Shown here: piece after piece, positions 10,711 through 43,794 of the stretch
How positions within the stretch are numbered: position 1 is the stretch's first letter
Layout: every line of letters starts with the position of its first letter
Origin: Candidatus Shapirobacteria bacterium
GTDB lineage: Bacteria > Patescibacteriota > Microgenomatia > UBA12405
NCBI GenBank assembly: GCA_022837635.1
Contig: JALHFY010000001.1
Coordinates: forward strand, 381,693-445,692
DNA length: 64,000 bases
Reading direction: 5' to 3'
The notes under the pieces: model-generated
What the model was told of the DNA's origin: nothing
The model's input: the letters and a program-made list of their open reading frames with translations, nothing else
Databases searched by the model: none
Made by a program: the position numbers and the translations under genes

Positions 10711-11027
10711 GAACTTCAGAGAAGTTGAAGGACTGTATCTGGGTCGCCGTCGCGAAAGCTATGGTGTACCAAGGTAGGAAAGTCCGGACCACAAAAAGCA
10801 AGAAATCCCGAAGGGGACGGGGTGTGAACTCCGGGTAAGGCTACAGAGACGAGTAGGTCGCCTTCGTTCCGCGATTGCGGGACTACGGTGTACCGAGGTG
10901 AAACGAGCCTCCTTTCTGTGGAAATCTCAAGATGAGGCGCCTGTATCTAGCTTTTGAGAGCCTCAGGTGGAGAGAATAGATAGATAGTCCATAAACAGAA
11001 TCCGGCTTATCTACTTCTTTGAAGTCT
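10711..11027 (+). ncRNA. rnpB: RNase P RNA (bacterial type, reduced size)
   Basis: P4 strands taggaaagtccggac (5') and acagaatccggcttatc (3') match the universally conserved GGAAAGUCCGG and ACAGAAcCCGGCUUA blocks. A ggtgaaa block is present. The ends pair as P1 (acttcagagaagt with acttctttgaagt). Confidence 0.75.
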
Positions 11028-30279: not shown

Positions 30280-30307
30280 TTGACATTGTCATCAATTATG
30301 TTACAAT
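30280..30307 (+). promoter_or_regulatory. Near-consensus sigma70 promoter upstream of the giant surface-protein gene
   Basis: TTGACA-N16-TACAAT, about 35 nt upstream of the TTG start at 30342. Confidence 0.45.
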
Positions 30308-30341: not shown

Positions 30342-33300
30342 TTGAAAAATATATTCAAAAAACGAGTCTTTGACAAATTAGCGGCAATTTCCGCTGGTGT
30401 CTCGTTAATTCTCAACATCTTTTTGCCTTTATTAATAGTGATCCCTGTCCGGGCTGAAGAAATAGCAGCCTCTCCATCTGCGGAAGTAATAGAGGCTACT
30501 CCTACCCCTGAACCTACTGCCGCTCCAGAACTGACTCCCGCTCCCGAAGTTACTCCAACTCTAGAACCGTCATTAACTCCAACTGAAACTCCTGAAAATG
30601 CTGATGTTGGTGCTACTGAGGCAGCTGCTACTCCAACTGAAATTGAAGCTAAGCCTACGATTGCGAATGAGAAAAATGATGATAGTGATAAAGAAGAAGT
30701 TTCTCAAAAGTTCCGATCTACTCTTTTAAGTGCTTCTCAGTCAAGCAAGTCCGGTCAATACTCTATTTCTTCTACTAATGGTATTTGGACTAAGGTTGAG
30801 GGAACAAATAACTATGATGGTTTGAATACTGAGGAGATAAGATGGGGATCTGCCTCTTCAGGATCTTCTAGAAGTGGTTTAAGATTTGATGGTGTTGGTA
30901 CAACAACCAGTTTTAACGCCAATGAAAAGTTTTTAATAGGTGGTTTAACTCATTTTAATTGGCCTATATCGGGATCAGCAGCGAATAAAGCAACTCTAAA
31001 AATTACCCTAAATTTTTCAAATCCCTCTATTACGCCCTCGCCTACATTTACATATGATTTTGGTATTGAAGAAACAACCAATACTTACAATTTACAGGAT
31101 TGTAAATATTATGGTAAGCCTGAGCAACAAAGTCAGACTGCTTGCGATGACGTAATTACATTTCCTAATGGAGGTTATGGTGAAGAGGAATACACTATAG
31201 GGGATATGAAGTATACCCTAAAGATTGACGGTTTTCAAAATTCATATCCTGATGGTAAAACGGTTAGTAAGTTCATAACAGAAGAAAGAAAAAATAATGA
31301 GGCATTTTTAGTCGGCCATCTCAGTTCTGTCTTGGTTGAAAGCCCAAAAATCTCCATCATTAAAAAAGTGAATGGTTACGATGCAAATACTCCTGGAGAA
31401 GCAGTCCAAGTCACCGCAGGAGAAACAGTCAACTTTACATATATTGTTCAGAATACAGGTAATGTTAAATTAACAGGCATCTCAGTAACTGACAATAAAG
31501 GAGTTAATGTAAGTTGTCCTAAAACAGAATTAGATCCTGGCACGAGTATGACCTGTACTGGTAGTGCTAAAGCTATTGCGGGCAAATATACTAATATCGG
31601 TACAGTAAATACAACATCTCATCCATCAGTCACAGCTAGTGATCCTGCAAACTATGTCGGTCTTGTTCCTAAAATTAAAATTTGTCATAGAACCGCCTCA
31701 CATACAAGTCCTTATGAAGTAATTGAGCCTGATGCATCTGGAGATTTAAATGGTCATGTGGGACACACGGGGGATATTTGGTTCCCAGGTATAACAGTGG
31801 CATGGGGAGATATTATTAAACCGTTTACATATTACGAAAATGGGGAGCAAAAAGAATTTACAGGCCTCAATTGGAGTGAATATGGACAAGCGGTGTATAA
31901 CAATGACTGTAAAATTCCACAAGGTAAGATAATTATCAACAAAGTTTTAAGCCCAGCCTCTAACGACAACACAGAATTTACAATAGTAGGTAGTGGTACT
32001 CCTGCAATAACAGGTTCTCCTACTTTCTTGTATGAGAGTGGCAGTAATGTCGGAAGTATCAGTAGAAATAAATCTCATACATACAATGCCATGCCCGGTA
32101 CTTATAATATTGGAGAAACAGTTCCGGAAGGATGGAATCTAGTCAGTAATACGTGTTCAAATATCGAAATTGCGAATAACGAAACTAAAGAATGTACTAT
32201 TACTAACACACAAGATGGTTCATTAACTATTGTCAAGAAAGCATTACCATTTGGTATGGATTCATTTGGATTTACTCTGACAGGTAATGGAGTGAGTGAA
32301 CAATTCAGCTTAGTTGATAATTCAGGGACGGAAGATGCAAGCAAGACATTTAGTTTGAAAGCAGGGACATATGCAGTTGCGGAAGATAATTACGACGATT
32401 GGAAGACAACAGCTTCTTGTACAGGTGGACAGACAATAGATAATATTGTCCTAAACGCTGGCGATAGTGTAACTTGTACGTTTGCTAATACAAAATATGG
32501 GTCTATTTCAGGTCATAAATGGAATGATGCTAGTGGAAAAATAGAAGATCCAAATACAGATTTAACTCCAGTTTCTGGATGGACAATCATTCTGAAAGAT
32601 AAAAATGGAGCTGAGATTACTAGAACAACAACTGATGTAAATGGATACTATAAGTTTACCGGATTACTACCTGCAGACTACATAGTCACGGAGGGTTTGG
32701 AAGCTGGTTGGATAGTTTTGGCTGGTGATAGTAGAGATGTGGAGTTGAATGCTGGTAATAACGAGACTAATGTTGATTTCATTAATGTTAAATACGGTAG
32801 TATCAAAGTCTTAAAGAACGTTGATGTAGATGGGAACGGTCAGGTGGATACAGAAGGTGCTACAGATTGGGAATGGTTATTGGGAATGGATACAAAGGCG
32901 AGGATATATGCTACAGGAGAGACAGCTAAAAACTTATTGCCTGGAGTTTATAAAGTATCAGAAACACAGAAAAATGGCTATCATATAACGTCATTAGTAT
33001 GTACAAATAATGGTCAAGAGATTGTTAATGAGGCAAGTGAAAGTGTGAAAATTTCGTTAGAGTCGGGAGATAATGTTGTATGTACCTTTACCAATACCAG
33101 AGACACGGGTACATTAATTGTTAGAAAAGAAGTTGTTAATGATAATGGTGGTGCTCTGACAGCCAAGGACTTTTCATTTAAGATTGATACCGGTAAAGGG
33201 ATTGTTTTTGATCAAGATCCCACAAATCCTTTATTGGGTGAGAATACGTATAAGACTTTCCCAACTGGTACCTACACTATTACAGAACTAGAGGCAAATC

Positions 33301-36300
33301 AAAGAGGATATGCTACCTCATACAACAACTGTGACAAAGTAGAGGTTAAGAAAGGCGAAACAGCTGTTTGTACAATTACAAACAATGATAAAGCAGCAAA
33401 GCTAACTGTAATCAAGAAAGTCATTAATGATAATGGGGGAACAGCAAAAGTAAAAGATTTTGAAATTAAATTAAATGATAAAGACTTGGAATTTAAGTTA
33501 GATCAAGGAAGTGTAAGTAAATATATTTCTACTTATATTTCTACTCCAGAAGTCCAATCTAACACGGAGTATAAATTGACAGAAATTGATCATCCTGGTT
33601 ATAAGGAAGGAAAATGGAGTTGTAAGCCCAAAAAGGACGATGGAACTGGAGATGCAAGACCAGTACCCACCAAGGAAGGGCCGTCAACCTCTTTCACCTT
33701 ATCTCCAGGAAAGGAGATTGTTTGCACGATTACCAACGACGATATTGCCCCTTCGTTACAACTAATTAAGAAGGTCGTTAATGATAATGGTGGTACAGCA
33801 GTGGCAACCGATTGGAATCTAAAGGCAGAGGGTCTAACTCCAATTTCGGGAGATGGTAGTGCTATAAGTGGAAATAAATTCAAGGCTGGTGCATATACTT
33901 TGAGCGAAAATAGTGCTGTCACAGGATATAGTGCTAGTGATTGGAATTGTACAAATGGGATTGAGGTTGATGGCAACAACGGAATAACCCTGGGAATAGG
34001 TCAATCTACAGTCTGTACCATTACTAATGATGACGTGGCGCCAACTCTTAAACTAGTTAAGAATGTTGATAATGGCCATGGTGGTCCATCAAATGCAAAT
34101 GATTGGACATTAACTGCAAAATCAGAAACAGAAGAATTCAGTAATCTTGGTGATGCTGATACGACTCACACAGTTACGGCAGGAGTTGTCTATACATTGA
34201 GTGAGACAGGTCCAGAAAAATATGAAGCAGGAGAATGGGAGTGTACCAATAACATTGTGGTTGATAATAATAATGGAATAACTCTCGGATTGGGACAATC
34301 AACTGTTTGTACAATTACCAATACCTACTCACCTGGTTGTATTGAAGGTGAAGGTATTGGAGCTGATATAGTTGCTTCGGTTACACCAGGCACCAGATAT
34401 GACGGTAATCCTATTGTAAACTTGGGAAGTGAGGATAGAACAAAACCAGGAAATGCATTGGGTACAGCTGATGATAAATTCTACAGTTTGGGTAAAGATG
34501 GAGAGATTGAGCTGGAGTTTACCGGTTTCGTAGAAAATGTAGCCGGTAACGATTTCTCTATTCATGAGGTAACTTGGAATAGAGATAGCGACAAAGAAGA
34601 AAAGGCAGAAGTGTATGTTAAAAACAGCAATTCTGACTGGAAATATCTTGGAGAAGCCAGCAGTTTCAGTGATGGAAATAATGATGGAAAAAGAGATGGA
34701 ATCACACATTTTGATTTTGGAAACACAGGATTACCTTGGATAAATGCTATTAAACTGGTTGAGTCATCGGTGGGTCAGGATAATAACGATGACGGCTTTG
34801 ATTTGAATGCTATCGTGGCCGCCAGTCATGTTTGTAAAGAACCTTCTGTATCACAAGTAAAGATTTGTAAAGTGGATAATAAAAATAGACCATTGTCAGG
34901 CTGGGATGTGATGTTAAAAGAAAAAGTAGATGGTCCTAGTTTGATAAATGTATCCAACGATAGTGGGACTAATTCCTCTGATTTACTAGCAGGAAAATAC
35001 CTTATCAAAGTTAGTGGTACATATAGATATGGAAATTCTTCAATGAATGCTGACGCAGGCTTTTCGTACAGACCACAGGGAATACCCAGTGGTTGTGATT
35101 GTTGGTTAGATGGACACGAAATATCAGGAGGTTTAATGGCTCGGGTAAATGGAGAGGCAGTAAATTGGGGAGCTTATAATGATGGTCATGTTTACACATA
35201 TGTATATGATCATAATGGGGGAAAAATAAACATATCAATCCGGGACAATATATATATAGATAATGTAAATAATAATAATTTCCAGTTTGAAATTTTCAGA
35301 ATACCGGAAGGTTATTATGGTACTACTGGTAACGATGGGTGTGTTATCTTAAACAACGTCCTTTATGGAGATTACATTCTTGATGAAATCTTGAAAGAAG
35401 GATGGATTAATGTCTCTGGGAAAGGAAGTTCGGTGTCAGTAGATTCTTTAGAAGAAGTCTTTACATTAGTAAACAGAGAAGATGCTCCTGTAACCATAGT
35501 GGCGACCAAAATTGTCTGTAATAATGAAGCAGATTTGCCAAATTGGGGTTATGGAGCTCCTGATAATATAACCAAGGATACGGCTTCAAATTTCCTGGCT
35601 TCACGTCCCAATTGTCGTCGAGAATCTGGTTGGAGTTTCCAATGGGGAAATGATAGTTCAACTAACCCAGGAGATACGCACACAGGAGAAGCATCCGGTT
35701 GGCACACCTTTGGTCCGACTGGTTCTGACGGAGTTGCTACTGTCAATATTAACGACTTTGGCAACACTTCTCAAATTAAGGTGAGAGAGGTTTTGAAAGA
35801 AAATTATATTCCGTTTACATATTTAACCAACAAAAACAATTCCAACAATGTGTCTGCAGAAATCTATTGTCACACCGATGTTTTGAATTATGACAACGAT
35901 GATAGATTTATACCCGAATACGGAAATACCTATTATTGTGTTGCTTGGAACGTGGAAAAGAATCCATTGTTATCGATAGTGAAGAGTGGTGCTTTTGTTG
36001 ATGGAAATGCCAATGGTTTTGCAGATGTGGGAGAGACTATCAACTATAGCTTCACAGTTAAAAATGAAGGTAATGTCACTTTAACCAATGTGACTGTCAC
36101 CGATCCTAAAGTGACTGTGATTGGTGGTCCGATTACACTTAATGTGGGTCAAACTGATGCCACTACATTTACCGCTTCTTATGTGTTGACTCAGGATGAT
36201 GTTGACACTGGAAAAGTAGATAACACCGCTACTGCTGATTCAGACGAATCAGAACCAGCGTCAGATGATGAGACCGTCACTTTTAATACGAAAAAACCCA

Positions 36301-38807
36301 CATTGACTGTTGTCAAAAAAGTTGTCAATGATAACGGTGGAGATACCACTATCAATGATTTTGAGATTAAATTAAATGACGACTTAATCACATTTGAAGA
36401 CGGAGTTGTAGATGGTACCACGACTACATACACTTCTACTCCGACAGTATCTACAAAGACAGAATATACCTTATCAGAAAAAGACCTTGAAGGATACGAG
36501 GAAGGAGATTGGAGTTGTATAGATGATACAGAGGATAATATCGCCATGCCGTTTACTTTATCGGCAGGTCAAAATGTAACTTGTACTGTCACCAATGATG
36601 ATATCTTTGGTCAAATCTCGGTCATTAAATTTAACGACGTTAATGGCAATGGTCAAATGGATGCAGGTGAAGAAACCTTGCCAAATTGGCAAATAAATCT
36701 AACTTCTCAAGATTCAAAAGTGACGAATGACGAAGGTTCAGTGGTATTTGATAAATTAATTCCCCAAACTTACTATCTTAGTGAAACTCTTCAGCCTGGT
36801 TGGACTCAAACCTCTATCAACTGTGGACAAGATCAAGTTAGAATTACCGCTCCCGGTGAAGCCTATGGTCATCACGGGGTTTGTTCTGGTTGGAATGGTT
36901 GTGAAGACGCCGCCACTTGTGCCAAATGGGCTTGTGAGGCTAAAGGTTATCAAAATTTAGTTTCCTATGGTGAAGTCAAGGGTTGTACCAAGTTTAATAA
37001 GTGTAATTTATTCTGGTCTCGCAACAAGGTTGACTATAACTGGGATAATCATTGTGATGTTTTGGGAGTTACAGACATTGTCTGTAGTAATTCCAGTTCT
37101 ACTCCCAGCCTAACTCCAATGCCAACGACTCCAACTCAAGCACAAAATGATAATAACTATCAAATTGTTTTGGACAAATCTAAAACAGTTCAATGCTACA
37201 TTGGTAATCGTTATATCACTCCTAAAATAACTCTCTCTAAGAGTAACAATGTTGGTTTGACACCTCAAAAAGTTGGGAATGAAGTTGTTTATACTCTTAA
37301 ACTTAAAGTTACCGATAATTTTGTCAAAGATTTGTCAGTAATCGATTTACCGCCAACCGGTTTTGTCTATAAAGCTGGTAGTTATCAGGCCAAAGTTAAT
37401 GGTAGTCCTGTAGCTATTGCCGAACCACAGTATCACTCTCCTGGCCAATGGTTTTTAGGTGACTTAAATAAGGATGATGAAGTGGAATTAACTTATACCG
37501 CCACGATTCAAAACTCGGTGGATCCGGGAACTTATAAAGATGCCGCCTGGGCCTATGCTTGTCAAAGCAGTACTGATTGTCAAATTGATAGTAGTGATAG
37601 AGTTTTGGCTCAAGCCGTCAATCCTGGTTATCTAAATACCACCTTTGTTGGGACTCAAGTGAAATTAATTGCCGAGGCTCCAGCTCAAGAATATTCAGTA
37701 AATAGAGAAGAAATCAAAGAAGGAGAAGTTTTGGGAGCGACGACAGGTTTACCGGCCACCGGAGCTAGTAACGGATGGTTGTGGGTCATAGGTAGTTTAT
37801 TGACCAGCGGCATGGCTTTAGTATTTGCCGGGATTAAGAAAAATAAAATCATGGCAGTCATTCTGGCCCTATTTATGGTGACTCTTTTTATTCCTAAATA
37901 TACTTTAGCGGCTGATTCGGACTTATTCATTGCCTTGGAGAGTCCAGCCAGTCCTAATAACCAAAGTAAATTTAACCTAGCTTTTACAGCTTTGGATATG
38001 TTAAATCGACCCATAGTGGTCAAGTGTTTCAAAATCAATCCGGATAACAGTGAAGTGCAATTGGGAGGCAATATTAACTTGAAAGCCGGTGGTAACTCCG
38101 GTAATTGTAGTCTGGAGAGTTCACCTTTGAGTGAAAGCGGTAAAAATTACCGATTTTATGCAGTAGCTTCAAGTGGAGCTGATAGTTACAAAAGTGAAGT
38201 GGTTTCAGTGGATTACAATACTGATTTACCGGGAGTACCAACTGATTATTCTAAAGAAAAAGAAGGCAGTTGCCGCTTTAAGCTAAGCTTTAGAGCCAGT
38301 AATGACGGAAAAACTAAAGTTGTCAGAATCTATCGTTCAGAGCAAAATAAATTTAATGCCGATAGTCACACTCAAATTGGAGAGGTGGGTATTGATCCCG
38401 GTCAATGGGGTAGCTTTACCGATGTTAATGTTCCCGATTGTAACAAAACTTATTATTACGCCATTCGGGCTTTTGATGAGGCCAATAATGGCAGTGGTTT
38501 AGCCGGTGATTCAAACACAATCGTGACGACTGTTACTACTACCACTACTACTACTGTCAATGACAGTAATATTACTGACACTACTGGGGCAATCAGAGTT
38601 GCAGATAGTAATATTCCTGGCGAAGAAGAGATAGCTAATGCCGAGGAAAGTGCCGGTGAGGAAAGTGAGACAAGTGGAGAAGGTAGTGTTTTGGGAACCA
38701 CTGAGGAAGTAGGTAAAAACAATAAAATAAAGTTGCTTCTAGTAGGGGCTCTGATATTAATCGCTATAATTGTCTATGTCAGTCGCCGTTCCCGCCGTCA
38801 AAAATAA
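30342..38807 (+). CDS. Giant secreted cell-surface protein (about 2,821 aa), likely an adhesin
   Basis: TTG start and signal peptide (IVIPVRA/EE). A P/T/E-rich linker, at least 3 DUF11-like repeats, at least 3 Cna-B/SdrD-B-like modules, 5 repeats carrying V(V/I)NDNGG, and a Cys-rich module. LPATG plus hydrophobic segment plus KKNK at aa 2470-2502, then an in-frame signal peptide, FN3-like domain, Thr-rich stalk and C-terminal TM-RRSRRQK. Confidence 0.8.
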   Translation: MKNIFKKRVFDKLAAISAGVSLILNIFLPLLIVIPVRAEEIAASPSAEVIEATPTPEPTAAPELTPAPEVTPTLEPSLTPTETPENADVGATEAAATPTEIEAKPTIANEKNDDSDKEEVSQKFRSTLLSASQSSKSGQYSISSTNGIWTKVEGTNNYDGLNTEEIRWGSASSGSSRSGLRFDGVGTTTSFNANEKFLIGGLTHFNWPISGSAANKATLKITLNFSNPSITPSPTFTYDFGIEETTNTYNLQDCKYYGKPEQQSQTACDDVITFPNGGYGEEEYTIGDMKYTLKIDGFQNSYPDGKTVSKFITEERKNNEAFLVGHLSSVLVESPKISIIKKVNGYDANTPGEAVQVTAGETVNFTYIVQNTGNVKLTGISVTDNKGVNVSCPKTELDPGTSMTCTGSAKAIAGKYTNIGTVNTTSHPSVTASDPANYVGLVPKIKICHRTASHTSPYEVIEPDASGDLNGHVGHTGDIWFPGITVAWGDIIKPFTYYENGEQKEFTGLNWSEYGQAVYNNDCKIPQGKIIINKVLSPASNDNTEFTIVGSGTPAITGSPTFLYESGSNVGSISRNKSHTYNAMPGTYNIGETVPEGWNLVSNTCSNIEIANNETKECTITNTQDGSLTIVKKALPFGMDSFGFTLTGNGVSEQFSLVDNSGTEDASKTFSLKAGTYAVAEDNYDDWKTTASCTGGQTIDNIVLNAGDSVTCTFANTKYGSISGHKWNDASGKIEDPNTDLTPVSGWTIILKDKNGAEITRTTTDVNGYYKFTGLLPADYIVTEGLEAGWIVLAGDSRDVELNAGNNETNVDFINVKYGSIKVLKNVDVDGNGQVDTEGATDWEWLLGMDTKARIYATGETAKNLLPGVYKVSETQKNGYHITSLVCTNNGQEIVNEASESVKISLESGDNVVCTFTNTRDTGTLIVRKEVVNDNGGALTAKDFSFKIDTGKGIVFDQDPTNPLLGENTYKTFPTGTYTITELEANQRGYATSYNNCDKVEVKKGETAVCTITNNDKAAKLTVIKKVINDNGGTAKVKDFEIKLNDKDLEFKLDQGSVSKYISTYISTPEVQSNTEYKLTEIDHPGYKEGKWSCKPKKDDGTGDARPVPTKEGPSTSFTLSPGKEIVCTITNDDIAPSLQLIKKVVNDNGGTAVATDWNLKAEGLTPISGDGSAISGNKFKAGAYTLSENSAVTGYSASDWNCTNGIEVDGNNGITLGIGQSTVCTITNDDVAPTLKLVKNVDNGHGGPSNANDWTLTAKSETEEFSNLGDADTTHTVTAGVVYTLSETGPEKYEAGEWECTNNIVVDNNNGITLGLGQSTVCTITNTYSPGCIEGEGIGADIVASVTPGTRYDGNPIVNLGSEDRTKPGNALGTADDKFYSLGKDGEIELEFTGFVENVAGNDFSIHEVTWNRDSDKEEKAEVYVKNSNSDWKYLGEASSFSDGNNDGKRDGITHFDFGNTGLPWINAIKLVESSVGQDNNDDGFDLNAIVAASHVCKEPSVSQVKICKVDNKNRPLSGWDVMLKEKVDGPSLINVSNDSGTNSSDLLAGKYLIKVSGTYRYGNSSMNADAGFSYRPQGIPSGCDCWLDGHEISGGLMARVNGEAVNWGAYNDGHVYTYVYDHNGGKINISIRDNIYIDNVNNNNFQFEIFRIPEGYYGTTGNDGCVILNNVLYGDYILDEILKEGWINVSGKGSSVSVDSLEEVFTLVNREDAPVTIVATKIVCNNEADLPNWGYGAPDNITKDTASNFLASRPNCRRESGWSFQWGNDSSTNPGDTHTGEASGWHTFGPTGSDGVATVNINDFGNTSQIKVREVLKENYIPFTYLTNKNNSNNVSAEIYCHTDVLNYDNDDRFIPEYGNTYYCVAWNVEKNPLLSIVKSGAFVDGNANGFADVGETINYSFTVKNEGNVTLTNVTVTDPKVTVIGGPITLNVGQTDATTFTASYVLTQDDVDTGKVDNTATADSDESEPASDDETVTFNTKKPTLTVVKKVVNDNGGDTTINDFEIKLNDDLITFEDGVVDGTTTTYTSTPTVSTKTEYTLSEKDLEGYEEGDWSCIDDTEDNIAMPFTLSAGQNVTCTVTNDDIFGQISVIKFNDVNGNGQMDAGEETLPNWQINLTSQDSKVTNDEGSVVFDKLIPQTYYLSETLQPGWTQTSINCGQDQVRITAPGEAYGHHGVCSGWNGCEDAATCAKWACEAKGYQNLVSYGEVKGCTKFNKCNLFWSRNKVDYNWDNHCDVLGVTDIVCSNSSSTPSLTPMPTTPTQAQNDNNYQIVLDKSKTVQCYIGNRYITPKITLSKSNNVGLTPQKVGNEVVYTLKLKVTDNFVKDLSVIDLPPTGFVYKAGSYQAKVNGSPVAIAEPQYHSPGQWFLGDLNKDDEVELTYTATIQNSVDPGTYKDAAWAYACQSSTDCQIDSSDRVLAQAVNPGYLNTTFVGTQVKLIAEAPAQEYSVNREEIKEGEVLGATTGLPATGASNGWLWVIGSLLTSGMALVFAGIKKNKIMAVILALFMVTLFIPKYTLAADSDLFIALESPASPNNQSKFNLAFTALDMLNRPIVVKCFKINPDNSEVQLGGNINLKAGGNSGNCSLESSPLSESGKNYRFYAVASSGADSYKSEVVSVDYNTDLPGVPTDYSKEKEGSCRFKLSFRASNDGKTKVVRIYRSEQNKFNADSHTQIGEVGIDPGQWGSFTDVNVPDCNKTYYYAIRAFDEANNGSGLAGDSNTIVTTVTTTTTTTVNDSNITDTTGAIRVADSNIPGEEEIANAEESAGEESETSGEGSVLGTTEEVGKNNKIKLLLVGALILIAIIVYVSRRSRRQK
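37851..38807 (+). CDS. Possible separate gene: a signal-peptide / FN3-like / Thr-rich / C-terminal TM-anchored protein, in-frame with the giant ORF and with no stop between them
   Basis: The ATG at 37851 immediately follows the LPATG-TM-KKNK sorting signal. MAVILALFMVTLFIPKYTLAADSD is a canonical signal peptide. KTYYYAIRAFDEANNGSG is an FN3-like motif. A C-terminal TM plus RRSRRQK follows. Confidence 0.3.
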   Translation: MAVILALFMVTLFIPKYTLAADSDLFIALESPASPNNQSKFNLAFTALDMLNRPIVVKCFKINPDNSEVQLGGNINLKAGGNSGNCSLESSPLSESGKNYRFYAVASSGADSYKSEVVSVDYNTDLPGVPTDYSKEKEGSCRFKLSFRASNDGKTKVVRIYRSEQNKFNADSHTQIGEVGIDPGQWGSFTDVNVPDCNKTYYYAIRAFDEANNGSGLAGDSNTIVTTVTTTTTTTVNDSNITDTTGAIRVADSNIPGEEEIANAEESAGEESETSGEGSVLGTTEEVGKNNKIKLLLVGALILIAIIVYVSRRSRRQK

Positions 38808-39387
38808 GAAAACTAATATCTGGATTGTCTTGGGAGTAATATTGATGGCGTCAGCAATAATAATCGCCTATCTTACTTTTGCACCGGTATTGAAATCAGA
38901 AATAAAGTATCAATTGGTGGTAAAAAATAAAACAGTAGAAGAGAAGATAGTGCCGGTAGATACAGATTTTTCAGTGGTTATTCCCAAGATCAGAGCCAAT
39001 GCCCGAGTGGTAGAAAATGTCGATCCTTTTGACGCCAAAAATTACCAGTTGGCTTTGAGTCGAGGGGTAGCTCACGCCAAAGGAACATCAACTCCGGACA
39101 AAGGCAGTAATACTTTTTTATTTGCTCATTCAGCGGGTAATTGGTATCAAGCTAATCAATATAATGCTATCTTTTATCTCTTAAATAAATTGGAAAAAGG
39201 TGATGAAATTGTTCTTTATTTTAAGGATAAAGAATATGTTTATCAGGTAGAAGAACTCCAATATGTTGGAGGTGGAGAAACAAAATATATGAATGCTTCA
39301 GCGAAAAATAAATTAACTTTAATGACTTGTTGGCCACCAGGAACAACCTTGAAAAGATTGATAGTGATAGCTAAATTAAAAGATTAG
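38776..39387 (+). CDS. Sortase-family transpeptidase
   Basis: An N-terminal TM anchor, a TLMTCWP (TLxTC) catalytic Cys, a downstream conserved Arg (KRLIV), and FAHSAGN His. The ORF-track start is a TTG at 38770; the ATG at 38776 is preferred. Overlaps the end of the giant ORF. Confidence 0.7.
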   Translation: MSVAVPAVKNKKTNIWIVLGVILMASAIIIAYLTFAPVLKSEIKYQLVVKNKTVEEKIVPVDTDFSVVIPKIRANARVVENVDPFDAKNYQLALSRGVAHAKGTSTPDKGSNTFLFAHSAGNWYQANQYNAIFYLLNKLEKGDEIVLYFKDKEYVYQVEELQYVGGGETKYMNASAKNKLTLMTCWPPGTTLKRLIVIAKLKD

Positions 39388-40019
39388 TTTAAGGGTTCGG
39401 ATTGTAAGCGTAGACAACCGGAAGGATCATTTTTGGTCAAATACTGCCAGAGAGTTTTGAAAAAGTTGTGATGATTAACAGCCAAAAGGCGATTGAGACA
39501 AACAGAACTACCTTTAACAGCAGTTTTACCTAAAGATACGACTTTATCGTAATCAGCAATAGCTTGGTTACGATCTCGTTGATAGTAATAATTATAGATG
39601 TCTCCCCTATTTCTGAGGGCAGTGGCATAATCTGGGCGAAGTTCGATAGCCCGATTTAAGTCGTTTAGAGCAGACTCGTAGTTTTGTAAGCGCATATAGA
39701 CATAGCCACGATTGTTATAAGCCTCAGCATATTTGGGGTTTAAGGTAATGGCTTGATTGAGATCTTCGATAGCTTGTTGGCAATTGCCAGACTCGTAATC
39801 ATAATCACCTAGAGTTAACCAATCGGCGGCAGTCTTTAGATTGGTAGGACGAATGGTGGTGGGTACATGGGCCCGGCCACAATGAGCATCTTTTCGAATA
39901 ATTTTTCGACCAGGATTTATAAAAGTGATGTAGACAGCGCCAAGAATTACAAAGGCAGATAAAAGCAACAAGAAAGTAAGGTTGGCAGATTTTTTTTGTT
40001 TCATAAAATATGATAACAA
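39384..40019 (-). CDS. TPR-repeat protein with N-terminal TM anchor
   Basis: Three to four TPR units (AEAYNNRGYVYMRLQNYESALNDLNRAIELRPDYA). Confidence 0.7.
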   Translation of the reverse strand: MLSYFMKQKKSANLTFLLLLSAFVILGAVYITFINPGRKIIRKDAHCGRAHVPTTIRPTNLKTAADWLTLGDYDYESGNCQQAIEDLNQAITLNPKYAEAYNNRGYVYMRLQNYESALNDLNRAIELRPDYATALRNRGDIYNYYYQRDRNQAIADYDKVVSLGKTAVKGSSVCLNRLLAVNHHNFFKTLWQYLTKNDPSGCLRLQSEPLN

Positions 40020-40737: not shown

Positions 40738-42321
40738 ATGGTAAAAGTTTGGACAATCAAAATTGCTGGACCGGCGGGAACTGGGATTAAATCAGTAGGA
40801 ACTTTGTTATCTCAGATTTTGAATCAAAGTGGTTATTTTTTGAAGGATTATTCGGAATATCCCTCACTGGTGCGAGGAGGCCATAATACTTATCAGGTAT
40901 CTTTTTCAAATGAAGCAGTGTTTGCGGTTCACAGAGAAATCGACTTAATGGTTAGTCTTCAAGCTGGACATTGGCAAGAGCACCAAAAAGAATTGAGTAA
41001 AAAAGCGATACTTTTAACCGATAATGACGGAGGATTACACTTACCTTTGGCGACCATGTGTACCCAACTGGGAGGAAAAATTTATGGAAATATTATTGCT
41101 TTGGGAGTCGTTTCTTTTCTATTGGATGTTAATAAAGAATTGGCTTTGAAAGTGGTGAAAAATCATTTTGGCCAAGACGAAATTGACCATAAAGCTTTTG
41201 AATTAGGTTGGAAATACGGAGCCGATAATTTTCAAAAATTAAAAATTGGCAAGGCAAAGAAATTTCGAAAAAAGAAAATGATAGTTGATGGTAACGAAGC
41301 AGTGGGATGGGGTTTATATAAGGCTGGGCTGAATTTATTTGCGGCTTATCCAATGACTCCAGCCACGGGATTACTCCATTTTTTGGCTAAAAATCAAGAT
41401 GAATTTAAGATTAGAGTTATTCATCCGGAAGATGAGATTGCGGCGGCCTCAATCGTCTGTGGGGCTTCAATGGTCGGGGGCAGAAGTGCTACCGGAACTT
41501 CTGGTGGAGGTTTTGCCTTAATGACGGAAAGTGTCAGTTTAGCCGGAGCGGCAGAATTGGGAGTGGTATTTTATTTGTCGCAACGACCGGGACCGGCGAC
41601 AGGCATGCCAACTTGGACCAGTCAAGGAGATTTATTATTTGCCGTTAATGCCGGACATGGTGAATTTCCAAAAATTGTCTTGGCACCGGGAGACCAAAAA
41701 GAATCTTTTGAGCTGGGGAAAAAATCACTCAATTTGGCCAATAAATTTGACGTACCAGTCATATTATTATCGGATAAGAATTTATCGGAATCAAGCGCTA
41801 ATGTTGATGATCTAGCGGCTGAAAAAATGGAAATTATCGAGAGTAAAAAAGCCATACCAGGTAAAGGACAAAAAATTAAACTTTACAATAGTTATGAACA
41901 TGATGAGGCAGGGTTTTCAGTTGAAGAAGCCAATAAAGCTAAAGCAAATGTTGAAACAAAACTAAAAAAAATAGAAAAGATTAAAAAATCTTTACCTAAA
42001 GTAAATTTTTATGCTTCGCCAAAGGCCAAGAAACTAATTGTTTGTTGGGGCTCGGTTAAAGGAGCGGTTTTGGAAGCGCTAAAGACAATGAAAAACAAGG
42101 AGGAATTCGCTGTCTTACAGATTGTATCTCTGTGGCCTTTAGAGGAAAATTTAGAAAAAATTATTAATTCTTTTTCGGAGCGAATTTTGATAGAAAATAA
42201 TGCTTTTGGACAATTAGGACAACTCTTAAAGTCAGTAATGACGATTGATTTTGAAAAAAGAATTTTAAGATATGACGGGAGACCTTTTTTCCCGGAAGAA
42301 ATTAAGGAGGCACTCAAATGA
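40738..42321 (+). CDS. 2-oxoacid:ferredoxin oxidoreductase, fused gamma-alpha subunit
   Basis: A gamma-like N-terminus (IAGPAGTGIKSVGTLLSQIL ... VRGGHNTYQV) fused to an alpha domain (VDGNEAVGWGLYKAGLNLFAAYPMTPAT). Confidence 0.8.
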   Translation: MVKVWTIKIAGPAGTGIKSVGTLLSQILNQSGYFLKDYSEYPSLVRGGHNTYQVSFSNEAVFAVHREIDLMVSLQAGHWQEHQKELSKKAILLTDNDGGLHLPLATMCTQLGGKIYGNIIALGVVSFLLDVNKELALKVVKNHFGQDEIDHKAFELGWKYGADNFQKLKIGKAKKFRKKKMIVDGNEAVGWGLYKAGLNLFAAYPMTPATGLLHFLAKNQDEFKIRVIHPEDEIAAASIVCGASMVGGRSATGTSGGGFALMTESVSLAGAAELGVVFYLSQRPGPATGMPTWTSQGDLLFAVNAGHGEFPKIVLAPGDQKESFELGKKSLNLANKFDVPVILLSDKNLSESSANVDDLAAEKMEIIESKKAIPGKGQKIKLYNSYEHDEAGFSVEEANKAKANVETKLKKIEKIKKSLPKVNFYASPKAKKLIVCWGSVKGAVLEALKTMKNKEEFAVLQIVSLWPLEENLEKIINSFSERILIENNAFGQLGQLLKSVMTIDFEKRILRYDGRPFFPEEIKEALK

Positions 42322-42938
42322 GTCAATGGTTGTCAGGCATTAAGCCAACTTGGTGCCCGGGTTGTGGCGATTATATAATTTTAGGGGCTCTAAAGACTGT
42401 CTTGGAAAAACTAAAAGTGAACCAAGATCGAACTGTAATTGTCTATGATATTGGTTGTATTGGTAATATGGCAGATTTTATCAAAGCTTGGGGTTTTCAT
42501 TCCCTACATGGGAGAAGTATTCCAACAGCTATCGGGATTAAAAATGCCAACCCAAAATTAAATGTGATTGTAGTCGGAGGTGATGGGGGAATTTATGGAG
42601 AGGGTTTGGGGCATATGATTGCGGCGGCTCGCTTAAATTTGGATATAACAGTGATAGTGGCTAATAATCAGCTTTATTCTCTAACTACAGGGCAAAGTAG
42701 TCCTACTACTCCCAAAGGGGTAAAAACTAAATCGACACCTAAAGGAGTGGAAAGTGTGCCGGTACTACCACTGGAATTGGTAAAAACAGTTAATCCTGAA
42801 GCTTTGGCACAAAGAGTTGATGGTAGTCAGCCACAAGTAGTAATGAAAGCAATAGAAGCAGCTATGAAGCATCAAGGTTTCGATCTTTTGGATATTAATC
42901 AGTTATGTGTTAGCTTTGGGAAGCAGTTGGTGCAATAA
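42318..42938 (+). CDS. 2-oxoacid:ferredoxin oxidoreductase beta (TPP-binding) subunit
   Basis: WCPGCGD, GCIGN and GGDGG ... NN TPP-binding motifs. Overlaps the alpha stop by 4 nt. Confidence 0.8.
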   Translation: MSQWLSGIKPTWCPGCGDYIILGALKTVLEKLKVNQDRTVIVYDIGCIGNMADFIKAWGFHSLHGRSIPTAIGIKNANPKLNVIVVGGDGGIYGEGLGHMIAAARLNLDITVIVANNQLYSLTTGQSSPTTPKGVKTKSTPKGVESVPVLPLELVKTVNPEALAQRVDGSQPQVVMKAIEAAMKHQGFDLLDINQLCVSFGKQLVQ

Positions 42939-43056
42939 AATGAAAAACAAACAAAGAGAAGAAATACTAATTGTTTCCCAGGTGGGTGAAGAATTTCAGG
43001 ATGTGGAGAAACGCTATAAAAGTCTCAGAAAAATTATGAAAAACCTAAAAAAATTT

Positions 43057-43794
43057 TCAGAGGTAAGTATAAAAAATCAAAGTGCCGAGGCCTAATAAAA
43101 AAGTATAGACAGCAAAATACCATAGTTTACGACGGAGGAGGAGTTTTTGAAGCAAGTTGAGAGCTAAAAAACCAACTACAAAAGTAAAGAGAAAAATGAA
43201 AAAATACTGAGAATTAAAAAAAGAGTGAAAATCACCGTCTTTTAGAGATAAAAGTAGAGCACCCAAAGAAACAGGAATAAAGAGAGAAAAAGAAAAATTA
43301 AAGGCAGTTTGAGCCGATAAACCCAAGGCTAGAGCAGCAGCAATGGTGGTCCCTGATCGAGAAATTCCCGGTAAAATAGCCACTGCTTGAGCTAAACCAA
43401 TTAGTAAAGCTTGAGTCAAAGTAATCTCTTGTTGTTGACCGGAAGCTCTTTTAGTCGAAAGTAAAATTAGGGAATTGATAAAAAAGAAAAAAGGTAAAAA
43501 ATAGGCTCGGGTGAAAATAATTTCAAATTGATCTTTGAGAAAAAAACCAACCAGGGCAGCTGGTAAAGAGGCAACAAAAATTTGAGGTAAATGAGAGAAA
43601 AAAAAGGTAATTTTTTTTCTAAAGAAAAAAATAACTGAAACCAGAGTGGCAGTATTTAAAAAAACATCTAAAGCCAAGGAAGGTTTGAGACCAAAAATAA
43701 ACTGAAACAGATTAAGATGACCGGAAGAAGAAATAGGGAGAAATTCGGTAATTCCTTGAATTAGAGCCAAGAGATAATTTTGCCAAAGAGACAT
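43057..43794 (-). CDS. uppP: Undecaprenyl-diphosphatase
   Basis: GITEFLPISSSGHL and PGISRSG motifs; 8 TM segments. Confidence 0.85.
   Translation of the reverse strand: MSLWQNYLLALIQGITEFLPISSSGHLNLFQFIFGLKPSLALDVFLNTATLVSVIFFFRKKITFFFSHLPQIFVASLPAALVGFFLKDQFEIIFTRAYFLPFFFFINSLILLSTKRASGQQQEITLTQALLIGLAQAVAILPGISRSGTTIAAALALGLSAQTAFNFSFSLFIPVSLGALLLSLKDGDFHSFFNSQYFFIFLFTFVVGFLALNLLQKLLLRRKLWYFAVYTFLLGLGTLIFYTYL

What the first reader, a model, noticed from the sequence alone, without database searches (positions are those of the whole stretch)
30342..39387. Adhesin-sortase cassette: a roughly 2,800-aa multi-repeat surface protein with its own near-consensus promoter and an overlapping dedicated sortase
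The ORF makes up about 13% of the window. It has a TTG start and a TTGACA-N16-TACAAT promoter. Its product begins with a signal peptide and a Pro/Thr/Glu-rich spacer. It contains DUF11-like repeats (for example IIKKVNGYDANTPGEAVQVTAGETVNFTYIVQNTGNVKLTGISVTD) and Cna-B/SdrD-B-like modules (for example ISGHKWNDASGKIEDPNTDL ... VNGYYKFTGLLPADYIVTE). Five copies of a roughly 95-aa module start with L(T/I/K)(V/L)(I/V)KKVxNDNGG(T/D) at about 33100-34320 and 36300-36600. There is also a 10-Cys module (CSGWNGCEDAATCAKWACEAKGYQ ... CDVLGVTDIVCS). The sortase gene overlaps its 3' end (TLMTCWP). Such giant LPXTG proteins with a private sortase are the expected host- or cell-attachment machinery of an episymbiotic CPR-type cell. 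The repeat families and the H-rich segment (CHRTASH ... NGHVGHTGD) are not obviously assignable.
Basis: partly seen in the sequence, partly recalled or inferred. Interest (0 to 1): 0.6.

Follow-up and report, generated by a model that had tools for sequence, protein, structure and literature searches.

The report
Adhesin, FN3 partner and sortase cassette
The giant gene is a real surface adhesin with its own sortase in a CPR (Shapirobacteria-like) bacterium, but its wall-anchoring signal is internal: it is followed in the same reading frame by a conserved, undescribed membrane protein that many relatives encode as a separate gene.

Summary
ORF 30342-38807 (2821 aa, TTG start) has a signal peptide, a Pro/Thr-rich spacer and SpaA/SdrD-B/CLIPPER stalk domains. 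A sortase gene overlaps its 3' end and keeps the His/Cys/Arg triad.

The LPATG sorting signal is at aa 2470, 348 aa before the stop. After LPATG, a hydrophobic helix and KKNK, the frame continues into a second signal-peptide-like segment, two FN3-like domains, a disordered linker and a C-terminal membrane helix.

This 318-aa module belongs to a CPR-wide family with no Pfam or NCBIfam model (528 clusters at E<=1e-30). It always lies between an LPxTG adhesin and a sortase. It is fused in frame in about 60% of cases and is a separate, abutting gene in the rest, with at least about 25 switches between the two states.

Best reading: a three-part cassette whose fused precursor is resolved by sortase and signal peptidase into adhesin, hairpin remnant and FN3 protein. 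The processing is inferred, not shown, and the module's role is unknown. The adhesin tip resembles the peptide-binding domains of the RTX adhesins MpIBP and FrhA.

It is a new variant of a known kind and moderately interesting.

The parts
30280..30307 (+). Promoter-like site TTGACA-N16-TACAAT with an extended -10 TG
   Evidence: 11/12 match, the best in the 10.5-kb scan. This is a consensus match only.
30342..38807 (+). The 2821-aa ORF: adhesin and FN3 membrane module in one reading frame
   Evidence: The same 2821-aa gene is called in NCBI contig JBJSVZ010029731.
30342..30455 (+). N-terminal signal peptide (aa 1-38, predicted cleavage VRA|EE)
   Evidence: hydropathy 2.19 at aa 13-35. The cleavage site is inferred from the -3/-1 rule.
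30456..30770 (+). Pro/Thr/Glu-rich spacer (aa 39-143)
   Evidence: read directly from the sequence.
30771..31328 (+). THxN-type domain, the candidate ligand-binding tip (THFNWPISG at 30948-30974)
   Evidence: NCBIfam NF038125 E 1e-21. phmmer against PDB: FrhA PBD 9Y9W E 7.5e-6; MpIBP 6X6Q/5K8G E 4e-5.
31341..31619 (+). CLIPPER_2 (DUF7507) domain 1
   Evidence: E 4.5e-13.
31680..31775 (+). His-rich segment ICHRTASH...NGHVGHTGD, unassigned
   Evidence: No Pfam, NCBIfam or PDB match.
32019..34331 (+). Stalk of SpaA_4 / SdrD_B / SpaA_2 prealbumin-like domains. Four tandem SpaA_2 units start at 33114, 33402, 33756 and 34047.
34323..36092 (+). Lineage-specific insertion of about 590 aa (aa 1328-1917), absent from the closest ortholog
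   Evidence: P0014 and L003 lack it. Partial similarity to P0171, named a discoidin-domain protein, and to a 157-aa Cys domain in P0165-P0170. No PDB match.
35964..36851 (+). CLIPPER_2 domain 2, the fifth SpaA_2 unit (starts at 36303) and the second SdrD_B domain
36882..37088 (+). Cys-rich module (8 Cys in the quoted span), unassigned
   Evidence: no family match.
37182..37748 (+). Conserved C-terminal core of the adhesin: a DUF11/CLIPPER-like domain, FVGTQV, and GEVLGATTG (37722-37748)
   Evidence: This is the only part of the adhesin shared with 45-49 of the related loci. DUF11 E 2.8e-5. A G-x-V-L-G pre-motif occurs in 122/129 relatives.
37749..37850 (+). Internal sorting signal: LPATG (37749-37763), hydrophobic helix aa 2478-2497, and the basic loop IKKNKI
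   Evidence: TIGR01167 LPXTG_anchor 17.2 bits against a cut-off of 15.9.
37851..37910 (+). Second, internal signal-peptide-like segment MAVILALFMVTLFIPKYTLA|A
   Evidence: A -3/-1 small-residue site is kept in 106/107 fused and 69/71 standalone forms.
37914..38528 (+). Two FN3-like beta-sandwich domains of the conserved module, each with a conserved Cys pair
   Evidence: AF2 model pLDDT 80-95. Foldseek finds tandem FN3 structures. Conservation.
38529..38804 (+). Thr-rich/acidic disordered linker with TGAIRV and GSVLG (38682-38696), C-terminal helix (38727-38780) and SRRSRRQK tail
38776..39387 (+). Sortase (203 aa from the ATG; an alternative TTG lies at 38770). N-terminal membrane helix; H118 (39127), C185 (39328), R194 (39355).
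   Evidence: AF2 pLDDT 81.6 and Foldseek hits to sortases of classes C, A, D and E.

Best explanation
This is a three-part, CPR-specific sortase cassette. Its parts are: (1) a variable giant fibrillar adhesin with a conserved C-terminal domain and a G-x-VLGAST-x-LPxTG sorting signal; (2) a conserved membrane-anchored protein of about 320 aa, made of a signal peptide, two FN3-like domains, a disordered linker and a C-terminal helix; and (3) a small, N-terminally anchored sortase. In this genome, parts 1 and 2 are one reading frame.

Proposed path:
1. The N-terminal signal peptide starts Sec export.
2. The sorting-signal helix stops transfer, and KKNK stays in the cytoplasm.
3. The next hydrophobic segment restarts export as an internal signal peptide, and the last helix anchors the FN3 module.
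4. Sortase cuts LPAT|G and transfers the adhesin to the wall precursor.
5. Signal peptidase I cuts after TLA.

The fused precursor would then give the same mature products as the two-gene arrangement, plus a hairpin remnant of about 50 aa. That would explain why fusion and fission switch so freely.

The adhesin's N-terminal THxN domain is the probable ligand-binding tip. The FN3 module is probably a one-to-one partner of the adhesin-sortase pair, but its role is unknown.

Shown: the anatomy, the conservation, the gene linkage and the sortase catalytic triad. Inferred: the topology, both cleavages, the wall acceptor and the partner role.
For: The fusion is real:
- The junction is identical in two assemblies of this genome, and the same junction (KKNKIMAVIL) is present in UBA1420.

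The module is a family of its own:
- Standalone homologs of 315-335 aa exist.
- 528 representative clusters match at E<=1e-30. Of the top 150, 99 carry the module at the extreme C-terminus of proteins of 410-3052 aa, and 51 are standalone.

Linkage in species-representative genomes:
- 32 of 55 loci are fused. In the other 23, most with enough upstream sequence have an LPxTG giant gene ending about -10 to +23 nt from the estimated module start.
- A sortase gene lies immediately downstream (within about 240 nt, usually overlapping) in 47 of the 54 related loci; in 4 of the other 7 the contig ends at the module. No other neighbouring gene is co-conserved.

The junction is conserved:
- 128 of 130 fused forms have LPxTG followed by a hydrophobic stretch just upstream of the module.
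- 45 of 129 have no Met at the junction, so separate initiation at an ATG cannot be general.
- Signal-peptidase-type -3/-1 sites are kept equally in fused forms (106/107) and standalone forms (69/71).

Other points:
- A rough NJ tree needs at least about 25 fusion/fission changes.
- The sortase triad is conserved and the sortase fold is supported.
- TIGR01167 is passed by the internal signal.
- There is one sorting signal in the window and one per related locus.
- The tip domain resembles PBD/THxN domains. The function of MpPBD comes from bioRxiv 10.1101/2020.11.18.389114.
- BacA, which recycles the wall lipid carrier, is encoded nearby.
Against: - No experimental data exist for any step.
- Cleavage of an internal signal peptide is assumed from sequence rules only. 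My site-finder is a heuristic.
- The wall acceptor is unknown in CPR.
- The sortase falls below every NCBIfam class cut-off, so its substrate and nucleophile preferences cannot be read from class.
- The module's role is undefined. Its fold is a generic FN3 tandem.
- A shared G-x-VLG motif in both the adhesin and the module is not explained by this model.
- The locus scan used a single peptide pattern, so the frequencies are a sample.
Confidence: 0.6

Rival explanations
1. There is no signal-peptidase step. After sortase cuts LPAT|G, the remnant (aa 2474-2821) persists as one three-helix membrane protein carrying the FN3 ectodomain. In this view fusion changes the product and has a function of its own, for example keeping the module beside the sorting-signal helix and the sortase.
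For: The topology is self-consistent: helix, basic loop, helix, ectodomain, helix, basic tail. The fused state is the majority, 99 of the top 150.
Against: Fused forms keep short cleavable-type hydrophobic cores and -3/-1 small residues as strictly as standalone forms do. Frequent switching between states argues that the mature products are equivalent.
Confidence: 0.2
2. The FN3 module is the covalent acceptor, like a basal pilin. The sortase would join the adhesin's Thr to a conserved Lys of the module, so the adhesin would be held on a membrane-anchored stalk rather than on peptidoglycan.
For: A Lys in PTDYSK (ORF aa 2638) is 95% conserved. The genes are coupled one to one. The sortase's best sequence and fold matches are pilin-type class C enzymes.
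Against: That Lys is Arg in 10 and His in 1 of 216 sequences, which conserves charge rather than an amine. No other Lys exceeds 81%. The sortase has no class C lid (1/46) and no C-terminal helix (0/46). Foldseek does not separate the sortase classes.
Confidence: 0.1
3. The module is a pseudo-substrate or second, non-canonical client of the sortase. It would bind through the shared G-x-VLG motif and act as a scaffold or regulator of sorting.
For: G-x-(V/I)-L-G lies 4 aa before LPxTG in 122/129 adhesins. It also occurs in 164/213 module linkers, upstream of a hydrophobic helix and basic tail.
Against: The module has no LPxTG-like motif. The distance from the motif to the helix is variable (median 21 aa). 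There is no evidence that sortases read positions upstream of LPxTG.
Confidence: 0.15
4. The long ORF is an artefact or a recent pseudogene-like accident: a lost stop codon or a 1-nt slip in the A-rich junction AAGAAAAATAAAATC.
For: Adding one A would create a TAA stop right after the basic tail (read from the sequence). Many relatives have two genes.
Against: The junction is identical in two assemblies of this genome, and the same residues are found in UBA1420. More than 130 independent fused sequences exist with diverse junctions.
Confidence: 0.02

Closest known systems
Sortase-anchored fibrillar adhesins of Gram-positive bacteria (Cna, SdrD, SpaA-type proteins with CnaB/SpaA/CLIPPER stalk domains)
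   Same: Signal peptide, N-terminal binding region, a stalk of SpaA_2/SpaA_4/SdrD_B/CLIPPER_2 domains, and LPxTG followed by a helix and a basic tail. The CLIPPER naming and isopeptide role come from PMC12617251.
   Different: The sorting signal is internal and is followed by another exported protein. The substrate is encoded with its own sortase. The host is a CPR bacterium. A strict G-x-VLGAST pre-motif is present.
Dedicated sortase with a single adjacent substrate (for example SrtB-IsdC, or the class GN 'marine' sortase with its one target; from my own knowledge of NCBIfam/TIGRFAM descriptions)
   Same: One sortase gene sits beside one sorting-signal protein. Only one signal is found per locus.
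   Different: A third conserved partner (the FN3 module) lies between them. The sortase meets none of the class cut-offs (marine sortase 28.6 against 158 bits).
Peptide-binding domains of the RTX adhesins MpIBP (5K8G, 6X6Q) and V. cholerae FrhA (9Y9W)
   Same: Sequence similarity over about 105-170 aa, including the TH(Y/F)N(Y/W)P motif. In those proteins the domain binds short peptides on partner cells (PMC12970687 abstract).
   Different: E-values are modest. The Ca2+ and peptide-contact residues were not mapped. The anchoring is entirely different (type I secretion and the outer membrane, against sortase).
One gene giving two exported proteins through an internal signal peptide, as in Bradyrhizobium FbcH (cytochrome b-c1 precursor; Thony-Meyer et al. 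1991, recalled from memory)
   Same: A membrane segment is followed by an internal signal peptide whose cleavage would separate two mature proteins.
   Different: Here the upstream cut would be made by a sortase. Cleavage is untested. The fused and split states alternate among close relatives.
Pam pili of CPR bacteria (bioRxiv 10.64898/2026.03.03.709456)
   Same: A CPR-restricted surface system built from Ig-like domains, with accessory proteins that have a signal peptide and a C-terminal membrane helix.
   Different: Pam assembly uses donor-strand exchange with PapD-like chaperones and involves no sortase. The module's top 50 fold matches are FN3 tandems and transglutaminase/protein 4.2 beta-sandwich domains; no PapD or FimC appears.

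Membership tests
Sortase superfamily (PF04203, peptidase C60) | Profile match above the curated cut-off | tested here: met
   79.1 bits against 26.6, E 3e-22. TIGR01076 46.7 bits against 39.35.
Sortase superfamily (PF04203, peptidase C60) | Catalytic His, Cys (TLxTC) and Arg | tested here: met
   H118, C185 and R194 are invariant in 69 sequences. They are present in 46/46, 44/46 and 45/46 cassette sortases.
Sortase superfamily (PF04203, peptidase C60) | Sortase beta-barrel fold | tested here: met
   AF2 pLDDT 81.6 and pTM 0.73. Foldseek E 6e-11 to 5e-9 against solved sortases.
Class C (pilin-polymerising) sortase | NCBIfam class C score cut-off | tested here: not met
   60.7 bits against 160. 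Classes D, E and F and the class GN (marine) model also fall below their cut-offs.
Class C (pilin-polymerising) sortase | Lid with DP(W/F/Y) before beta1, and a C-terminal membrane helix | tested here: not met
   Lid motif in 1/46 and C-terminal helix in 0/46 cassette sortases. Only 15-31 residues follow the TC motif.
LPXTG cell-wall sorting signal (TIGR01167 / PF00746) | LPxTG, then a hydrophobic stretch, then basic residues | tested here: met
   LPATG, aa 2478-2497, then KKNK. TIGR01167 17.2 bits against 15.9. PF00746 reaches only 13.6 against 20.
LPXTG cell-wall sorting signal (TIGR01167 / PF00746) | The signal lies at the C-terminus of the polypeptide | tested here: not met
   A further 320 residues follow the basic tail in frame. 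The same holds in 128/130 fused relatives.
LPXTG cell-wall sorting signal (TIGR01167 / PF00746) | Cleavage between T and G, and linkage to peptidoglycan | not testable with these tools
   Needs biochemistry.
Fibrillar adhesin with isopeptide-type stalk domains | Tandem SpaA/CnaB/CLIPPER-family domains above the Pfam cut-offs | tested here: met
   SpaA_2 239 bits, DUF7507 98.6, SpaA_4 66.4, SdrD_B 51.4.
Fibrillar adhesin with isopeptide-type stalk domains | Intramolecular isopeptide bonds actually present | not tested
   No coordinates were available to check Lys-Asn/Asp geometry.
Sortase-assembled pilus | Several LPxTG pilins, and an invariant nucleophile Lys in the acceptor subunit | tested here: not met
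   One sorting signal per locus. The best-conserved Lys of the module is Arg or His in 11/216 sequences.
THxN family PEP-CTERM protein (NF038125) | Full-length score cut-off and a PEP-CTERM anchor | tested here: not met
   77.4 bits against 85. Only the domain matches (profile positions 29-219). The anchor here is LPxTG.
RTX-adhesin peptide-binding domain (MpPBD / FrhA PBD) | Sequence homology to the solved domains | tested here: met
   E 7.5e-6 (9Y9W) and 4e-5 (6X6Q, 5K8G).
RTX-adhesin peptide-binding domain (MpPBD / FrhA PBD) | Conserved Ca2+- and peptide-binding loops | not tested
   The residue numbering could not be mapped reliably from the alignment.
Fibronectin type III tandem | Fold-level match for the module | tested here: met
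   Foldseek E 5e-7, probability 1.0, to CNTN1, gp130 and Tie2 FN3 pairs. There is no Pfam fn3 sequence match.

The most novel reading that the evidence does not exclude
CPR bacteria would use a sortase system of their own. A previously undescribed FN3 membrane protein would be an obligatory third component: an anchor, scaffold or pseudo-substrate recognised through the shared G-x-VLG motif. Adhesin and partner would routinely be made as one polyprotein, which sortase and signal peptidase cut into three pieces, including a free membrane hairpin peptide.
Probability: 0.3. Interest if true: 0.75.

Novelty: new variant of a known kind. Interest (0 to 1): 0.6.

Why it matters
Sortases are near-ubiquitous in Microgenomates (PMC6744442), yet how CPR cells display the giant proteins they are thought to use for attaching to other cells is unknown.

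This cassette gives a defined, widely conserved unit to test. It consists of one variable adhesin, one sortase and one unnamed partner family with at least 528 sequence clusters. It also carries an unusual feature: an LPxTG signal that is internal in most members.

For annotation:
- Predictors that require a C-terminal LPxTG will miss these substrates.
- Gene callers merge two proteins into one.

For biology:
- It offers a natural case in which sortase cleavage and signal-peptidase cleavage may together resolve a polyprotein.
- It points to a possible peptide-binding tip that could define partner-cell specificity.

Tried and rejected
Dead ends:
- Self-BLAST of the whole ORF returned only the self-hit, so I used 100-aa tiles instead.
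- An exact look-up of the sortase from the TTG start found nothing. The ATG start at 38776 is the called gene.
- The H-rich segment, the Cys-rich module and most of the aa 1328-1917 insertion gave no Pfam, NCBIfam or PDB match.
- Cluster look-up gave no source names for the module, adhesin or sortase clusters.
- Literature searches for CPR sortase cassettes and internal LPXTG signals found no description of this arrangement.

Ideas rejected:
- Assembly slip at the A-rich junction.
- The module's conserved Lys as an obligatory sortase nucleophile.
- Class C sortase membership.
- Other neighbouring genes as cassette members.
- Recent tandem duplication or slippage-prone repeats: the DNA copies are only 60-74% identical.
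- LPPTG at aa 2336 as a sorting signal: it lies inside the DUF11-like domain and no hydrophobic stretch follows it.
- The weak GG_III-CTERM hit (16.7 bits against 22), which matches only the membrane helix.
Full report
**1. The observation**

The ORF at 30342..38807 on the + strand is real. It is 2821 codons long with a TTG start, spans 13.2% of the window, and sits in DNA of about 38% G+C. An independent gene call in NCBI contig JBJSVZ010029731 gives the same 2821-aa product. The ortholog P0014 begins with the same MKNIFKKRVF.

- The promoter-like site TTGACA-N16-TACAAT is at 30280-30307. It scores 11/12 with a TG, the best in a 10.5-kb scan. Such sites are not enriched overall (41 against 34 in shuffles), so this is a consensus match only.
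- The N-terminus has a hydrophobic core (aa 13-35), then VRA|EE, followed by a Pro/Thr/Glu-rich stretch to about aa 143.
- Pfam confirms the repeat families: SpaA_2 (7 stretches, E 4e-72), DUF7507 (now CLIPPER_2) x2, SpaA_4 x2, SdrD_B x2, and a weak DUF11 match.
- The five L..KKV.NDNGG units start at nt 33114, 33402, 33756, 34047 and 36303. They are old copies (60-74% DNA identity), not a slippage-prone array.
- The sortase ORF (called from ATG 38776, alternative TTG 38770, ending at 39387) overlaps the big ORF by 32-38 nt. It passes the Pfam cut-off (79 bits against 26.6). H118, C185 and R194 are invariant in 69 homologs. Its predicted fold matches solved sortases.

**2.

LPATG is at aa 2470-2474 (nt 37749-37763). 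It is followed by a hydrophobic helix (aa 2478-2497) and KKNK. This passes the TIGR01167 LPXTG-anchor model (17.2 bits against 15.9).

There is no stop codon there. The frame runs on into:

- MAVILALFMVTLFIPKYTLA|A, which has the look of a cleavable signal peptide;
- about 205 aa of folded domain;
- a 60-aa Thr-rich and acidic linker;
- a C-terminal helix and the tail SRRSRRQK.

**3. The C-terminal 318 aa are a protein family of their own**

- A search with aa 2504-2821 found mostly standalone proteins of 315-335 aa that start with their own Met and signal peptide.
- A profile search of 1.84 billion representatives found 528 clusters at E<=1e-30. Among the best 150, 51 are standalone. The other 99 carry the module at the extreme C-terminus of proteins of 410-3052 aa.
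- The family has no Pfam or NCBIfam model and no source name.
- AlphaFold2 on the 13-sequence alignment gives two confident beta-sandwich domains (pLDDT 80-95), a disordered linker and a terminal helix. Foldseek matches tandem FN3 pairs. Each domain has a conserved Cys pair.

**4. A conserved three-part cassette**

A scan of species-representative genomes returned 54 CPR loci. They come from Shapirobacteria, Daviesbacteria, Collierbacteria, Levybacteria, Gottesmanbacteria, WS6/Dojkabacteria, Moranbacteria and Parcubacteria, plus some records with doubtful taxon labels. The nearest locus is Ca. Shapirobacteria UBA1420, 91% identical in the module.

- In my six-frame analysis, 32 of 55 loci (counting the window) have the module fused in frame behind an LPxTG signal.
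- The other 23 have it as a separate ORF. Where enough upstream sequence was held, most have an LPxTG giant gene ending about -10 to +23 nt from the estimated module start.
- A sortase ORF lies immediately downstream (within about 240 nt, usually overlapping by 34-55 nt) in 47 of the 54 related loci; in 4 of the other 7 the contig ends at the module.
- No other neighbouring gene is co-conserved.
- Only one sorting signal is present in the window and in each locus.

**5. The fusion is not an artefact**

- The junction is identical in two assemblies of this genome.
- The same junction residues (KKNKIMAVIL) occur in UBA1420.
- Of 130 fused sequences, 128 have LPxTG followed by a hydrophobic stretch directly upstream of the module. 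Their junctions are diverse, and 45 of 129 have no Met there.
- A rough NJ tree with Fitch parsimony on 207 non-redundant modules needs at least 25 fusion/fission changes, against about 63 when the states are shuffled. The state is heritable but has switched many times.

**6. How it probably works**

The topology is self-consistent: out-to-in helix, basic loop, in-to-out segment, ectodomain, helix, basic tail. Fused forms keep a short hydrophobic core and a -3/-1 small-residue site as strictly as standalone forms do (106/107 against 69/71 by my heuristic).

I therefore infer that signal peptidase I frees the module and sortase frees the adhesin. Both gene arrangements would then give the same mature proteins, and the fused one would leave an extra hairpin peptide of about 50 aa. 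This would make fusion nearly neutral and would explain the frequent switching.

By analogy with other sortases, the adhesin is passed to a wall precursor. BacA is encoded 3.7 kb away, but the acceptor is unknown. None of these steps has been shown.

**7. The adhesin itself**

- Only aa 2281-2500 are conserved across distant loci (45-49 loci). The remainder is a mosaic.
- Against the closest ortholog, the N-terminal 1327 aa are about 50% identical and the C-terminal part is 87% identical. That ortholog lacks a 590-aa block (aa 1328-1917).
- The block has partial similarity to a protein named as discoidin-domain-containing, and to a 157-aa Cys domain found in other surface proteins.
- The N-terminal domain (aa 144-329, with THFNWPISG) matches NCBIfam THxN (E 1e-21, below the full-length cut-off). 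It also matches the solved peptide-binding domains of FrhA (9Y9W, E 7.5e-6) and MpIBP (6X6Q/5K8G, E 4e-5).
- In MpIBP that domain binds short peptides in a Ca2+-dependent way and mediates binding to diatom cells (bioRxiv 10.1101/2020.11.18.389114). This makes it the likely binding tip. The ligand-contact residues were not checked.

**8. The module's role**

- I tested the idea that it is a pilin-like acceptor. The best-conserved Lys (ORF aa 2638, 95%) is Arg in 10 and His in 1 of 216 sequences, and no other Lys exceeds 81%. An obligatory amine nucleophile is therefore unlikely.
- The sortase is closest to class C enzymes by sequence and fold. However, it lacks the lid and the C-terminal helix, falls below all class cut-offs, and Foldseek does not separate the classes.
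- One unexplained clue remains. G-x-(V/I)-L-G lies 4 aa before LPxTG in 122/129 adhesins, and it also occurs in 164/213 module linkers, with a median of 21 aa before the helix.
- I take the module to be a one-to-one partner of the adhesin-sortase pair, with its mechanism open.

**9. Comparison and novelty**

- Known already: sortase-anchored adhesins with SpaA/CLIPPER stalks (PMC12617251), and the abundance of sortases in CPR (PMC6744442).
- I found no description of the FN3 partner family, the internal LPxTG, or the fused/split alternation.
- The recently described Pam pili of CPR are a different, sortase-free system.
- I rate this a new variant of a known kind, with interest 0.6.

**10. Limits**

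- The locus scan used a single peptide pattern.
- The ORFs in my scripts are stop-to-stop, so start positions and gaps are approximate.
- The tree is crude.
- Structural evidence rests on AF2 summaries, without coordinates.

Noticed in passing
window 10720-11018 (+): Full-length match to the Rfam archaeal-type RNase P RNA (RF00373, 95.4 bits against a gathering score of 84). The window is otherwise bacterial, with a ribosomal-protein operon and EF-Tu/EF-G. A bacterial-type model did not win the clan competition.
   Followed up: partly
window 37722-37748 and 38682-38696: A shared short motif, G-x-(V/I)-L-G, lies just before LPATG in the adhesin and again in the disordered linker of the FN3 module. 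It is conserved in 122/129 adhesins and 164/213 modules. Its function is unknown.
   Followed up: partly
window 34323-36092: An insertion of about 590 aa in the adhesin is absent from the closest ortholog (P0014 / L003). The adhesin's N-terminal two-thirds is about 50% identical to that ortholog, against 87% for the C-terminal core. This points to fast turnover of the exposed part.
   Followed up: partly
window 31680-31775: The Cys/His-rich segment ICHRTASHTSPYEVIEPDASGDLNGHVGHTGD has no family or PDB match. The spacing suggests a possible metal site, which is speculation.
   Followed up: partly
P0003 (432 aa, JGI contig of 2.8 kb): A radical-SAM N-terminal half (PF04055) is joined in frame to the module from mid-domain 1 onward. 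This is probably a chimeric contig or a rearrangement.
   Followed up: no
window 39384-40019 (-) and 40738-43794: A TPR protein converges on the sortase stop. Further on lie a 2-oxoacid:ferredoxin oxidoreductase pair and BacA (undecaprenyl-diphosphatase), then the ribosomal-protein cluster. Among the related loci, these neighbours recur in only 1-4 (L003 and a few others).
   Followed up: partly
L021 8801-9598: In one Patescibacteria locus, the ORF upstream of the standalone module is only 266 aa. It ends with a YAATG-type signal preceded by two VLGAS motifs. This looks like a minimal or degenerate substrate.
   Followed up: no
L055 and L056: In two distant loci the sortase gene lies upstream of the adhesin rather than downstream of the module, so the gene order of the cassette is not absolute.
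   Followed up: no
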